A DNA stretch of 46,932 bases from a virus: UHGV virus genome UHGV-0283311; one strand, 5' to 3'. Position numbers and translations under genes: made by a program. The number at the start of each line of letters is the position of its first letter. The first letter of the stretch is position 1. Under the pieces are notes generated by a model. It did no database searches and had not been told where the DNA came from. It saw only the letters and a list, made by a program, of their open reading frames with translations. Positions 9,554-34,429 of this stretch are shown here, in pieces.

Positions 9554-17572
<8,019 letters not shown>

Positions 17573-17573
<1 letters not shown>

Positions 17574-17812
17574 TACATTTTTCCTGCTCTTCTAAGTTCG
17601 TTGTAAGCAATTTCCTCTTTATACGACCTCTGAATCTCAAGAAATTGTCTCAATGATAATAAATCAGAGAATGTCATAGCAAAGAGTTGGTCAAGTGTTT
17701 CTTTACACCCTTCCATACCATAAATAGCAAGCACAAATTTCATCTCGTCTGCTTCTTCATAGGTTGCCTCTACAGCAGCATCAGTTAGTGGTGTCTGTAG
17801 AGTGTTACCCAT
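17573..17812 (-). CDS. tail assembly chaperone, -1 frame extension ORF
   Basis: 79-aa ORF in the -1 frame relative to 17815..18213; that frame is open from 17893 through the slippery site. Confidence 0.5.
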
Positions 17813-17814
17813 GT

Positions 17815-18213
17815 TTACTGAGAAGTTAGGCTTTTGAAAATGCTTGCTTCGAAAAAACTTCCGAAGTTTGCCTCCAGCGCAAATGCTAAGTAATCAATAA
17901 ACTCACCGTAGTTTGCTTGGAAGTACGTATCAATATTAAGTGGGAAGTCGTCAATAGTTGCCCCTTGAAATAATAAGGTAGCCATCTCTTCAAGGTTAAT
18001 TTCTTCAATTCTGTCAAAACAAGCTTCAACAAGCTCTTTAAATGGAACCATTGGAGCTTCCTTCTTACCCTTGTCAGTCAGACTTGATAGCATCTGTGCA
18101 AAAGTTGGAACAACAATTTTACCCAACTTCATAGACATCTTAATACCATCTCTTGCCCCAAGCAGAACGATATTTACTTTCTTGCCATTAATTACTCTAG
18201 ATTCTGTTTTCAT
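17815..18213 (-). CDS. tail assembly chaperone (G-like)
   Basis: 132 aa between tube and tape measure genes; contains T_TTT_TTC heptamer near its 3' end. Confidence 0.6.
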   Translation of the reverse strand: MKTESRVINGKKVNIVLLGARDGIKMSMKLGKIVVPTFAQMLSSLTDKGKKEAPMVPFKELVEACFDRIEEINLEEMATLLFQGATIDDFPLNIDTYFQANYGEFIDYLAFALEANFGSFFEASIFKSLTSQ

Positions 18214-18240: not shown

Positions 18241-18276
18241 ACAAAAAAGGGGAAGACCTTTTAAAGTCTCCCCCTT
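18241..18276 (-). terminator. terminator/attenuator after tail tube gene
   Basis: minus-strand hairpin ggggagac-tttaaaa-ggtcttcccc followed by ttttttgtttctttt. Confidence 0.55.
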
Positions 18277-18286
18277 ATAGGATTTA

Positions 18287-18733
18287 TTAAACACTTGACG
18301 CTGGAATTGTAGAAGTGTAGTCTAGCTTCTCACAACCAAAAATCCAAGTTTTAGAGTTCTGGTCACGACCAAGTTCAATCTGCGGTAATTCCTGCAACCA
18401 AGCATTAATACCAGTTGCCAGAACAGAGCCTGATGGGTCGTAGATTACGAAGTTAGAAGAGATATCTTCTTCAAGTTCCATATTGTCTTGTTTAGCTTGA
18501 ATTGCAGAAAGCATCTGGTTAGAGAGAGAAGTCTGCATTAACTCAATCTCAATAGTACCTGTCTTGTCTGCATTTCTTGTCAGAGCAACTTGACCACCTG
18601 CACCAACAACTGGTGTCACAAGTGGTGATGTTCTCTGTAGACGCAAGAATGAATCTGGGGCAAAGCCTTCAATGGCAATACCATTCCAGCTACATACAAC
18701 GTCTTTAGGGGAATATTGCTGATACATAGCCAT
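18287..18733 (-). CDS. tail tube protein (putative)
   Basis: 148 aa between sheath-sized gene and chaperones. Confidence 0.5.
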   Translation of the reverse strand: MAMYQQYSPKDVVCSWNGIAIEGFAPDSFLRLQRTSPLVTPVVGAGGQVALTRNADKTGTIEIELMQTSLSNQMLSAIQAKQDNMELEEDISSNFVIYDPSGSVLATGINAWLQELPQIELGRDQNSKTWIFGCEKLDYTSTIPASSV

Positions 18734-18748
18734 TCCAATTTACCTCTA

Positions 18749-20101
18749 TTATTCGTAAGCCACTGTACCTTTCAAGTCAACATCCAAGATAGCCCCTGCT
18801 AAGATACCTGCGAAGGTAACGTCTTTCAGGATACGTGCTTTCTTGTCTGCTAAAGCAACTTGAGAGGCTTTAGGAACATTAACTGTGTAAGATGACAGGA
18901 AGTTTCTGTTGACTGCTCTTTGCAGAGAGGTTTCAATGACTTGACGAATACGAGTAATACCAGTATCATCATAAGTAATCTTACCACCCTTCTGGTTAAT
19001 TAGCAAGTCTCTCAGAGAAGTTTTCAGGTCTGATTCTAACCAGTCAACACCACGGATGATATCAATCCATTCCCCACCAGAAGTAATCCCTCTACGAACC
19101 ACTGGAACACCACCATCAAGGTCAATAAAGTTACAGTGACGTGCATCTAAAGCAGACTTCTGAATACTTGTCAGAGGTCTCTGATTAGATGGTTGTAGAG
19201 AAGCTGCTACACCAGTTAGCTGAGCATTACCCCAAGCAATCGAACCTGCGTCATATGGAGCACCATAAGCAATGTATGCCATCTCTGGATAATCTTCTGC
19301 TGCTGTGTGATGCCACAAGCAAACTGTACGAGTGTACATATTCTTAGCAAGCTGTGCTGGAACATCATTTGCACTGGCTAATTCTGTGCCTTGCAGTGCT
19401 GCTACATCTGAGTTAGCCGTAAAGAAGATTTTCTTGCGAGCCTGAATCTCAGAAGCCATTGCTAAGACAAACTGTTGAGTTCTGTCTTCTGCTGCAATGA
19501 AATACCAGTCAGTAGAATAAGCTTCGATAGCTGCCAGAGCAGTTGATGCTGTATCGGCAGTTGTACTTGCAATGTATACAGTCTGTGCTGTGGTTGTTAC
19601 TTTCACAAAGTCATTATCACCAGCTTTGGTAATAATCATTGTGGCAGAGCCATTGCTACCAGTTACATTCACAGAAACCTTATCTTTGATTGTTGGGTCA
19701 GCTTCAATCTGTGTTTTAAACTGTTGCAACACTACCTCAGCAGTGTCTGAGTCTTGTGCTGTGTACTGGTATGGTTGAGAAATTCCACCGCCAGCAGCTA
19801 CAGTAATTGAGTAGTCTGTACTTTCGGTAACGGCATCAGGAATTGATACAGTGTACTGCATAGCACGTCTACCAATATAAAGCTGAGTTACTTTAGGAGT
19901 CTGACTCCAAAGTTGTTTAGCAGCCTTATATGCAGCAGAGTTTTCATCGAAATCTTCAGCAACTTCAGTTAAGGAAGTGTAACCACGGACTCTTTCTTCA
20001 AAGTTATCTGTTGAAGCTAAGAATAGTGGCAAACCAAAACCTTCTCTTGTAGTTCCTGCGGTGTTCAATGTAATATCTACATTAACAATTGGATTCCACA
20101 T
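18749..20101 (-). CDS. tail sheath protein (putative)
   Basis: 450 aa directly upstream of tube gene, as in contractile-tail phages. Confidence 0.5.
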   Translation of the reverse strand: MWNPIVNVDITLNTAGTTREGFGLPLFLASTDNFEERVRGYTSLTEVAEDFDENSAAYKAAKQLWSQTPKVTQLYIGRRAMQYTVSIPDAVTESTDYSITVAAGGGISQPYQYTAQDSDTAEVVLQQFKTQIEADPTIKDKVSVNVTGSNGSATMIITKAGDNDFVKVTTTAQTVYIASTTADTASTALAAIEAYSTDWYFIAAEDRTQQFVLAMASEIQARKKIFFTANSDVAALQGTELASANDVPAQLAKNMYTRTVCLWHHTAAEDYPEMAYIAYGAPYDAGSIAWGNAQLTGVAASLQPSNQRPLTSIQKSALDARHCNFIDLDGGVPVVRRGITSGGEWIDIIRGVDWLESDLKTSLRDLLINQKGGKITYDDTGITRIRQVIETSLQRAVNRNFLSSYTVNVPKASQVALADKKARILKDVTFAGILAGAILDVDLKGTVAYE

Positions 20102-34100: not shown

Positions 34101-34177
34101 TGGAGGCGGGTGCAGGAGTCGAACCTGCCGATACCATGCTAATGAGACATGTGAGACGCCCTTTCTCTATACCCGCA
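34101..34177 (-). tRNA. tRNA(CAT): Met, fMet or Ile2
   Basis: loop CTCATTA, D-stem gaga/tctc, 1-72 mismatch; isotype unresolved. Confidence 0.6.
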
Positions 34178-34267
34178 ATTCTTAATGACCAGACCAAATA
34201 TCTTCTTTGTCCGATTAACTTTCAGATGAGTAGATTAAGTTTGCTGTAATTGGTCTTCTGTCAAAAC

Positions 34268-34345
34268 TGGCGTTCCAGAAGGGATTTGAACCCTCAGATA
34301 TCCACTTTGAAAGAGTGGTGACTTTACCGTTTTGTCTACTGGAAC
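34268..34345 (-). tRNA. tRNA-Glu(TTC)
   Basis: perfect acceptor gttccag/ctggaac, perfect anticodon stem ccact/agtgg, loop CTTTCAA. Confidence 0.8.
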
Positions 34346-34352
34346 ATTAATT

Positions 34353-34429
34353 TGGTCTCTGTTGGAGGACTTGAACCTCCGGCCTTACCGCCCCAAACGG
34401 AACGCTCTACCAAGCTGAGCTAAACAGAG
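34353..34429 (-). tRNA. tRNA-Pro(TGG)
   Basis: perfect acceptor and T-stem, D-arm gctc-agcttggta-gagc, loop TTTGGGG. Confidence 0.75.

What the first reader, a model, noticed from the sequence alone, without database searches (positions are those of the whole stretch)
17815..17893. Programmed -1 frameshift site joining the two chaperone ORFs before the tape measure gene
The upstream ORF contains the canonical slippery heptamer T_TTT_TTC (plus strand gaaaaaa 17851-17857), and the -1 frame is open from 17893 through this site into 17573..17812. This is the conserved G/GT arrangement of tailed phages.
Basis: partly seen in the sequence, partly recalled or inferred. Interest (0 to 1): 0.45.

Follow-up and report, generated by a model that had tools for sequence, protein, structure and literature searches.

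The report
Known phage tail-chaperone frameshift site
This is the ordinary -1 ribosomal frameshift site, already annotated in sister phages, that lets Felix O1-type phages make a short and a long form of their tail assembly chaperone from one message.

Summary
The window is a Felixounavirus, 99.3% identical to phage XTG1. On the minus strand the genes run sheath, tube, chaperone ORF1 (18213-17815, Pfam Phage_TAC_15), ORF2 (17812-17573), tape measure. T_TTT_TTC (17857-17851) lies in X_XXY_YYZ phase in ORF1. The -1 frame is open from 17893 to the stop at 17575-17573, so a 213-aa fusion is possible.

Comparative evidence supports a programmed -1 frameshift:
- An in-phase T_TTT_TTY is kept at the homologous SFF/CFF/TFF codons in 12 of 12 lineages examined, including rV5, phiTE and marine myophages. 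Synonymous sites elsewhere are near saturation.
- In some relatives the -1 frame opens only 3 nt upstream of the heptamer.
- Third-position variation drops from the heptamer onward.
- Kolesnikviruses have no start codon for the downstream part, and one Felixounavirus carries ATA instead of ATG.
- None of 89 homologous protein clusters is a fused ORF.

No 3' RNA structure was found. An SD-like GGAGG lies 13 nt upstream but is not universal.

The frameshift is already annotated in phages Mushroom and Michonne and stated in the Moogle and Mijalis genome papers. It is real and ordinary. I found no experimental test of it.

The parts
17815..18213 (-). Tail assembly chaperone ORF1 (G-like), 132 aa, 14.8 kDa; zero-frame product
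   Evidence: Pfam PF21822 Phage_TAC_15 E=6.2e-19, 69.2 bits against a cutoff of 22; phrog_1613/3840 'tail assembly chaperone'; AF2 model pLDDT 78 matches the Moogle tape measure chaperone and other phage TACs in BFVD
17851..17857 (-). Slippery heptamer T_TTT_TTC (codons 119-121, AGT TTT TTC) in X_XXY_YYZ phase
   Evidence: invariant in 33 unique Ounavirinae sequences; T_TTT_TTY in 12 of 12 lineages; U_UU.U_UU.C is among the efficient -1 motifs measured in E. coli (PMC4066793)
17815..17893 (-). Overlap window in which the zero frame and the -1 frame are both open (79 nt)
   Evidence: in relatives the 5' limit of this window shrinks to 3-9 nt upstream of the heptamer
17573..17851 (-). -1-frame extension (T-like part), 92 codons plus stop, read after C17851 is re-read; it replaces the last 11 residues of ORF1
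   Evidence: phrog_4963 E=2.8e-55; coding signature in this frame, entropy at codon positions 1/2/3 = 0.47/0.35/0.78
17573..17812 (-). ORF2 as a gene caller sees it (79 aa from ATG 17812); most likely not an independent gene
   Evidence: no SD (best anti-SD duplex 0 kcal/mol against a median of -6.2 for 34 long ORFs); the ATG is ATA in locus L009, and Kolesnikviruses have no start codon for 55-57 codons
17871..17875 (-). SD-like GGAGG 13 nt 5' of the heptamer; a possible dnaX-type 5' stimulator (inferred)
   Evidence: -9.3 kcal/mol duplex with the anti-SD; present in Felixounavirus, Mooglevirus, phiSUSP1-like phages, Arno162 and rV5, with similar elements in L037-L039; absent in phiEa21-4, P778, phiTE and L040
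15345..17573 (-). Tape measure protein gene, 742 aa; its ATG shares one base with the GT stop (TAATG)
   Evidence: Pfam TMP_3 64 bits against a cutoff of 41; phrog_4036
18287..18733 (-). Tail tube (virion structural) protein gene upstream of the chaperone
   Evidence: phrog_280; Pfam KPP10_Orf10; annotated as structural protein in relatives
18749..20101 (-). Tail sheath gene
   Evidence: phrog_205 'tail sheath' E=1.2e-123

Best explanation

Most ribosomes translate ORF1 to its stop at 17817-17815 and release the 132-aa chaperone. A minority slip at codons 120-121. With tRNA-Phe on UUU in the P site and tRNA-Phe on UUC in the A site, both move back one base to UUU UUU. Translation then continues in the -1 frame (CGA AGC AAG ...) to the stop at 17575-17573. 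The product is a 213-aa protein with the same N-terminal 121 residues and a new 92-residue C-terminal part.

By analogy with lambda G/GT and P2 E/E+E', the shared part would coat the tape measure protein and the extension would recruit the tube protein. The slip rate would fix the ratio of the two forms.

Shown here: the sequence anatomy, its deep conservation, dual-coding constraint starting at the heptamer, and the lack of independent start signals for the downstream part. Inferred: the fusion protein itself, its amount, and the roles of the two parts. No 3' RNA structure appears to be needed. The GGAGG 13 nt upstream may help, but that is not established.
For: Anatomy.

Family and context. 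Identity as a Felixounavirus.

Conservation of the in-phase heptamer:
- T_TTT_TTC is present in all 36 Ounavirinae loci examined and invariant across the 33 unique sequences scored.
- T_TTT_TTY lies at the homologous codons in Yersinia P778, Alteromonas PT11-V22, rV5, phiTE and four IMG/VR contigs with only 25-35% protein identity.
- Upstream, only 43-53% of codons for identical amino acids are the same between these lineages, so synonymous sites are near saturation.

Location of the shift: the -1 frame opens 3 nt before the heptamer in P778 and L038/L039, and 9 nt before it in L028-L030.

Dual coding: third-position entropy is 0.77 upstream against 0.34 from the heptamer on, Mann-Whitney p=2e-5. 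In blastn against Erwinia phages, the only DNA still alignable is window 17868-17828, at 92.7% identity.

The downstream part is coding in the -1 frame. It has no SD here. It has no ATG/GTG/TTG for 55-57 codons in Kolesnikviruses, and L009 has ATA instead of the ATG.

None of 89 homologous protein clusters is a fused ORF; all are 124-136 aa.

The motif works on E. coli ribosomes: U_UU.U_UU.C is in the efficient class and shifts at more than 0.1% without stimulators (PMC4066793).

Independent curators annotated the same slip in Michonne ('ribosomal slippage (47149)', which falls inside the TTTTTTC) and in Mushroom. Published statements exist for Moogle and Mijalis.
Against: I found no direct evidence for the fusion protein in any Felix O1-like phage.

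The heptamer encodes the conserved residues S/C/T-F-F of the chaperone. Part of its conservation is therefore amino-acid constraint, and the lineages are not fully independent.

In this window ORF2 has an ATG 2 nt after the ORF1 stop, so some termination-reinitiation cannot be excluded.

No 3' stimulatory structure is present (fold z-scores +0.7 and +0.85; zero consensus pairs). The candidate 5' SD-like element is absent from several lineages.
Confidence: 0.85

Rival explanations
1. ORF2 is a separate 79-aa protein. It is made by termination-reinitiation: ribosomes finishing ORF1 at TAA 17817-17815 restart at ATG 17812. On this reading the heptamer is only the codons of a conserved S-F-F motif.
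For: The stop and the ATG are 2 nt apart. Most GenBank records annotate two separate genes. The S/C/T-F-F residues are conserved as protein.
Against: The ATG has no SD. It is ATA in L009. Kolesnikviruses have no ATG/GTG/TTG in that frame for 55-57 codons, yet they keep the whole domain. The position of the first ATG moves between genera. The -1-frame peptide between the heptamer and the ORF1 stop (FFRSKHFQKP...) is conserved, and synonymous variation in ORF1 collapses exactly there. The third base of the codon before F-F is T in 12 of 12 lineages.
Confidence: 0.08
2. The same long protein arises from transcriptional slippage. RNA polymerase would add one U in the T6 run, giving an mRNA in which the two parts are in frame.
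For: A one-base insertion in the run gives exactly the same protein (S-F-F-R...). Distant relatives have T7 runs. The review PMC5009743 describes transcriptional slippage as an alternative route in some systems.
Against: The run is only 6 T here and 6-7 in all relatives. From general knowledge, efficient slippage by bacterial RNA polymerase needs about 8-9 or more identical bases. Selection has not lengthened the run in any lineage. The motif fits the tandem-slippage rule, and U_UU.U_UU.C shifts ribosomes in E. coli.
Confidence: 0.04
3. The -1 shift happens elsewhere in the overlap, for example by single-tRNA slippage on the tetramer T_TTC at 17839-17836 (codons ATT TTC).
For: U_UU.C is the second most shift-prone tetramer in E. 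coli when a stimulator is present (PMC4066793). It lies inside the open overlap.
Against: Tetramers alone are barely shifty, and no stimulatory structure is present. The tetramer is not kept in rV5, phiTE, PT11-V22 or L037-L040, whereas the heptamer is. It is the only other candidate, since the heptamer is the sole in-phase XXXYYYZ in the overlap.
Confidence: 0.03

Closest known systems
Tape measure chaperone frameshift annotated in Felix O1-like phages: Salmonella phage Mushroom (KP143762), Citrobacter phages Michonne (NC_028247), Moogle and Mijalis
   Same: It is the same gene, the same TTTTTTC heptamer and the same -1 junction. Mushroom is 97.3% identical in DNA over this region, and its joined CDS covers the homologous 641 nt. 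Michonne's 'ribosomal slippage (47149)' falls inside the heptamer. The frameshift is stated in PMC4319497 and PMC5543628.
   Different: There is no difference in substance. Records closest to the window that were checked (finno, UAB_Phi87), and the product names listed for XTG1 and Felix O1, show two separate genes rather than a join.
Phage P2 gpE / gpE+E' (-1 frameshift at TTTTTTG, myovirus)
   Same: It is a contractile-tail phage with a small chaperone gene before the tape measure gene. It has a T6 slippery run, -1 direction and no downstream RNA structure (PMC3091744, citing Christie 2002 and Xu 2004).
   Different: No sequence similarity to P2 was detected. The protein family here is Pfam Phage_TAC_15. 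The last base of the motif is C or T rather than G. The products are larger (132/213 aa against 91/142 aa).
Phage lambda gpG / gpGT (G_GGA_AAG)
   Same: It has two products with a common N-terminus from overlapping ORFs placed before the tape measure gene, joined by a low-level -1 shift. The roles assumed here are taken from this system (PMC5009743).
   Different: Lambda is a siphovirus. The heptamer is different and there is no detectable sequence homology. The functions of the two parts are not tested for this family.
E. coli dnaX -1 frameshift (A_AAA_AAG with a 5' SD-like element and a 3' hairpin)
   Same: An SD-like GGAGG lies 13 nt upstream of the heptamer. That is within the 6-17 nt range searched for such stimulators in PMC4066793.
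   Different: There is no 3' hairpin. The SD-like element is not conserved in all lineages. The outcome is an extended product, not a truncated one.

Membership tests
G/GT-type tail assembly chaperone frameshift (Xu, Hendrix & Duda 2004) | Two ORFs lying between the major tail/tube gene and the tape measure gene, on the same strand | tested here: met
   Order is sheath 20101-18749, tube 18733-18287, ORF1 18213-17815, ORF2 17812-17573, TMP 17573-15345
G/GT-type tail assembly chaperone frameshift (Xu, Hendrix & Duda 2004) | The upstream ORF is a tail assembly chaperone | tested here: met
   Pfam PF21822 Phage_TAC_15, 69.2 bits against a cutoff of 22. PHROG TAC families. The predicted fold matches phage TACs in BFVD. 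There is no solved-structure relative by sequence or fold.
G/GT-type tail assembly chaperone frameshift (Xu, Hendrix & Duda 2004) | The downstream ORF is in a shifted frame that is open across the 3' end of the upstream ORF | tested here: met
   The -1 frame is open 17893-17573 and the +1 frame is closed. The same holds in all relatives.
G/GT-type tail assembly chaperone frameshift (Xu, Hendrix & Duda 2004) | An in-phase slippery sequence in the overlap, conserved among relatives | tested here: met
   T_TTT_TTC at 17857-17851. T_TTT_TTY in 12 of 12 lineages. Invariant codons in 33 unique sequences.
G/GT-type tail assembly chaperone frameshift (Xu, Hendrix & Duda 2004) | The downstream part lacks its own translation start signals | tested here: met
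   There is no SD before ATG 17812. The ATG is replaced by ATA in L009, and Kolesnikviruses have no start codon for 55-57 codons. Caveat: this window does have an ATG 2 nt after the stop.
G/GT-type tail assembly chaperone frameshift (Xu, Hendrix & Duda 2004) | A fusion protein made at a low, fixed ratio to the short form; both needed for tail assembly and absent from virions | not testable with these tools
   This needs protein analysis and genetics. No published experiment for Felix O1-like phages was found.
G/GT-type tail assembly chaperone frameshift (Xu, Hendrix & Duda 2004) | The shared part binds the tape measure protein and the extension binds the tube/major tail protein | not testable with these tools
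   Inferred from lambda only (PMC5009743).
-1 frameshift signals with a 3' stimulatory RNA structure (IS3, coronavirus, dnaX hairpin type) | A stable hairpin or pseudoknot a few nucleotides 3' of the heptamer | tested here: not met
   The MFE of the 81-nt and 51-nt downstream stretches is no better than shuffles (z +0.71 and +0.85). RNAalifold on 7 divergent relatives gives 0 pairs.
dnaX-type 5' SD-stimulated -1 frameshift | An SD-like sequence about 10-14 nt 5' of the slippery site, conserved | tested here: inconclusive
   GGAGG lies 13 nt upstream, with a -9.3 kcal/mol duplex, here and in several genera. It is absent in phiEa21-4, P778, phiTE and L040. It could also be a by-product of the Leu-Glu-Ala codons.

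The most novel reading that the evidence does not exclude
T_TTT_TTY at the N-F/Y-x-(S/C/T)-F-F motif may be a single ancient recoding site. It would have been inherited across the whole Phage_TAC_15 chaperone family (Ounavirinae, Vequintavirinae, Myoalterovirus and uncultured marine myophages). It would work without any 3' RNA structure. In many lineages it would be tuned instead by an SD-like element 10-13 nt upstream, and possibly by the phage's own tRNA-Phe(GAA), which is encoded at 30200-30275 in this window. Most database records for these groups, including RefSeq rV5 and Felix O1, do not annotate the fusion.
Probability: 0.3. Interest if true: 0.3.

Novelty: already known. Interest (0 to 1): 0.1.

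Why it matters
The main value is for annotation. Records near the window (finno, UAB_Phi87), and by their listed product names XTG1 and Felix O1, show two separate genes. The phiEa21-4 record leaves the downstream part unannotated, and the rV5 RefSeq record annotates it as a separate overlapping ORF. All of these should carry a joined 'ribosomal slippage' CDS. The comparison also shows that one specific heptamer is kept from Felix O1-like to rV5-like and marine myophages. That makes it a clean, structure-free test case for how a bare U6Y motif sets a protein ratio. It does not open a new question.

Tried and rejected
**3' stimulatory structure.** Single-sequence folds of 51 and 81 nt downstream of the heptamer and a consensus fold of seven divergent relatives found nothing.

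**Terminator-like hairpin at 17877-17861.** The pattern scan flagged it just 5' of the T run. It has 6 pairs, two of them G-T, and the region's hit count (2) is below the shuffle expectation (2.7). I treated it as chance.

**Naturally fused G-T ORF.** All 89 protein clusters found in the 5.8-billion-protein search were 124-136 aa. This argues that the stop is maintained, but it gives no positive proof of the fusion.

**Solved structures.** There was no sequence hit (best E=0.62). There was no significant Foldseek hit in the PDB for the AF2 model of ORF1 (best E=1.1). Only the BFVD search was informative.

**Experimental evidence in the literature.** Searches found genome-announcement statements only.

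**+1 frameshift.** I considered and rejected it because the +1 frame is closed within 6 codons.

Full report
**What the window is.** The 4.8-kb stretch around the finding is 99.3% identical to Enterobacteria phage XTG1 and 95-99% identical to about 180 other Felix O1-like phages. On the minus strand the genes run as follows:
- tail sheath, 20101-18749 (phrog_205)
- tube/virion structural protein, 18733-18287 (phrog_280)
- ORF1, 18213-17815, 132 aa (Pfam Phage_TAC_15, 69.2 bits against a cutoff of 22; phrog_1613/3840 'tail assembly chaperone')
- ORF2, 17812-17573, 79 aa (phrog_4963 'tail assembly chaperone')
- tape measure protein, 17573-15345 (Pfam TMP_3; phrog_4036)

**Checking the observation.**
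- The minus-strand TTTTTTC is at 17857-17851. Its first T is the third base of codon 119, so the zero frame reads AGT TTT TTC, which is T_TTT_TTC in X_XXY_YYZ phase.
- The -1 frame has its last upstream stop at 17896-17894. It then stays open through the heptamer and the ATG at 17812 to the stop at 17575-17573.
- The +1 frame is closed.
- A shift at the heptamer replaces the last 11 residues of ORF1 with 92 new ones. This gives 213 aa and 24.2 kDa, against 132 aa and 14.8 kDa for ORF1.

On chance alone the case is only moderate. In-phase XXXYYYZ motifs occur at 0.2-0.3% per codon in this window's long ORFs, so the probability of one in the 24-codon overlap is 5-7%. However, it is the only one of 43 such motifs whose -1 frame runs far beyond the zero-frame stop.

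**Comparative evidence.** This is what settles the interpretation.

1. Conservation of the heptamer.
   - All 36 Ounavirinae loci examined carry T_TTT_TTC in phase (Felixounavirus, Mooglevirus, phiSUSP1-like, Kolesnikvirus, Pectobacterium phage Arno162). It is invariant across the 33 unique sequences scored.
   - Relatives with only 25-35% protein identity carry T_TTT_TTY at the homologous S/C/T-F-F codons. Each has a -1 extension of 57-89 aa ending at the tape measure gene. These are Alteromonas PT11-V22, rV5, phiTE and four IMG/VR contigs. Yersinia phage P778 (47% identity) shows the same arrangement.
   - At identical amino acids upstream, only 43-53% of codons agree between these lineages. 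Synonymous sites are therefore close to saturated, and the invariant T before TTT TTY is not explained by shared ancestry alone.

2. Location of the shift. In P778 and L038/L039 the -1 frame opens 3 nt before the heptamer, and in L028-L030 it opens 9 nt before it. The shift therefore cannot lie further 5'.

3. Dual coding.
   - Third-position entropy in ORF1 falls from 0.77 upstream to 0.34 from the heptamer on (p=2e-5). AGT, TTT and TTC are each a single codon in all 33 unique sequences.
   - In blastn against Erwinia phages, the only stretch still alignable is window 17868-17828, at 92.7% identity.

4. The downstream part is coding in the -1 frame but is not an independent gene.
   - Entropy at codon positions 1/2/3 is 0.47/0.35/0.78.
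   - The ATG at 17812 has no Shine-Dalgarno sequence. Its best anti-SD duplex is 0 kcal/mol, against a median of -6.2 for 34 long ORFs.
   - One Felixounavirus contig (L009) has ATA at that position. Kolesnikviruses have no ATG/GTG/TTG for 55-57 codons after the heptamer, yet they keep the whole domain.

5. No fused ORF exists. All 89 homologous protein clusters are 124-136 aa, so the zero-frame stop is maintained everywhere. This is expected if both products are needed.

**Mechanism.** The likely event is tandem slippage of two tRNA-Phe from UUU-UUC to UUU-UUU.
- U_UU.U_UU.C belongs to the class of motifs that shift most efficiently on E. coli ribosomes (H_HH.U_UU.Y). It shifts at more than 0.1% without any stimulator and is used by IS elements (PMC4066793).
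- I found no 3' stimulator. The downstream 51 and 81 nt fold no better than shuffles (z +0.85 and +0.71). A consensus fold over seven divergent relatives has no pairs. This matches P2 E/E+E', which shifts on TTTTTTG without a downstream structure (PMC3091744).
- A GGAGG lies 13 nt 5' of the heptamer at 17875-17871, with a -9.3 kcal/mol duplex to the anti-SD. It recurs in several genera and in rV5, but it is missing in phiEa21-4, P778, phiTE and L040. It may enhance the shift as in dnaX, or it may be a by-product of the Leu-Glu-Ala codons.
- The roles of the two parts are inferred from lambda G/GT (PMC5009743) and are not tested for this family. On that model the shared part binds the tape measure protein and the extension recruits the tube protein.

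**Rivals.**
- Termination-reinitiation at ATG 17812 is possible in this particular genome. It cannot explain the relatives that lack a start codon, or the dual-coding signal upstream of the ORF1 stop.
- Transcriptional slippage on T6 would give the same protein. The run is short (6-7 T in every lineage) and only RNA-seq can exclude it.
- A shift at the T_TTC tetramer at 17839-17836 is a minor alternative. That tetramer is not conserved in distant relatives.

**Comparison with what is known.** This exact site is already annotated as a joined CDS in two sister phages:
- Salmonella phage Mushroom, which is 97.3% identical in DNA here.
- Citrobacter phage Michonne, whose 'ribosomal slippage (47149)' falls inside the same heptamer.

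The frameshift is stated in the Moogle and Mijalis genome papers. BFVD holds the 212-aa Moogle fusion as a protein entry, and it is the top structural match of my ORF1 model. Records closest to the window that I checked (finno, UAB_Phi87) annotate two separate genes, as do XTG1 and Felix O1 by their listed product names. I found no experimental test in any Felix O1-like phage.

**Verdict.** The feature is real, ordinary and already known at the annotation level. What this analysis adds is modest. The same T_TTT_TTY site is shared across the whole Phage_TAC_15 chaperone family, including rV5-like and marine myophages, where it is mostly unannotated. It also appears to work without a 3' RNA structure.

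Noticed in passing
window 18247-18276 (- strand): A strong intrinsic-terminator-like hairpin (13 pairs, 6 G-C, then TTTTGTTTCT) lies between the tube gene and the chaperone gene. It would lower transcription into the chaperone and tape-measure genes relative to sheath and tube. Terminators are annotated in this region in Michonne, and are listed among the features of XTG1.
   Followed up: partly
window 29275-34429 (- strand): There is an array of 25 tRNA genes. It includes tRNA-Phe(GAA) at 30200-30275, the tRNA that would slip on the heptamer. It also includes tRNA-Arg(ACG) at 31450-31525, which by standard wobble rules would read CGA, the first codon of the new frame. Whether the phage tRNA-Phe affects the shift rate is unknown.
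   Followed up: no
window 17571-17575 (- strand): The stop of the -1-frame extension and the ATG of the tape measure gene overlap as TAATG. Only ribosomes that have frameshifted terminate right on the tape-measure start, while zero-frame ribosomes stop 240 nt upstream. The two coordinates also coincide in Michonne and P778, but not in rV5, where a terminator lies in between.
   Followed up: partly
L009 around 1900-1905 (IMGVR_UViG_3300045988_004167): This Felixounavirus contig has ATA where the window has the ORF2 'start' ATG, and is otherwise identical around it. It is a natural variant arguing that this ATG is not needed.
   Followed up: yes
L037 1848-1866; L039 1854-1869; L040 1833-1851: Distant marine or uncultured relatives carry tandem candidate slippery sites. 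T_TTT_TTT is followed three codons later by G_GGA_AAG (the lambda G/GT heptamer) or G_GGA_AAC, and by A_AAG_GGT, all in phase within the overlap.
   Followed up: no
L045 (rV5, NC_011041) 1224-1592; L003 (phiEa21-4) 1570-1805; and rows for SUT_S920 and C600M2: Database annotation of this locus is inconsistent. RefSeq rV5 lists the -1 ORF as a separate overlapping 'hypothetical protein'. The phiEa21-4 record leaves it unannotated. Some Felixounavirus records call the chaperone a 'head closure protein'.
   Followed up: partly
H43 (MG065664.1), H129/H134/H139: Several records named 'Campylobacter phage' (A132, C14, C7, A116) hit this region. A132 is 97.5% identical in DNA to the E. coli/Salmonella Felix O1-like locus. 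C14, C7 and A116 give the same 28.1% protein match as rV5-like phages. The host labels look doubtful.
   Followed up: no
window 17861-17877 (- strand): A weak hairpin (CTGGAG/CTTCGG, 6 pairs with two G-T) sits immediately 5' of the T run and contains the GGAGG. The scan scored it as terminator-like, but it is not above chance.
   Followed up: partly
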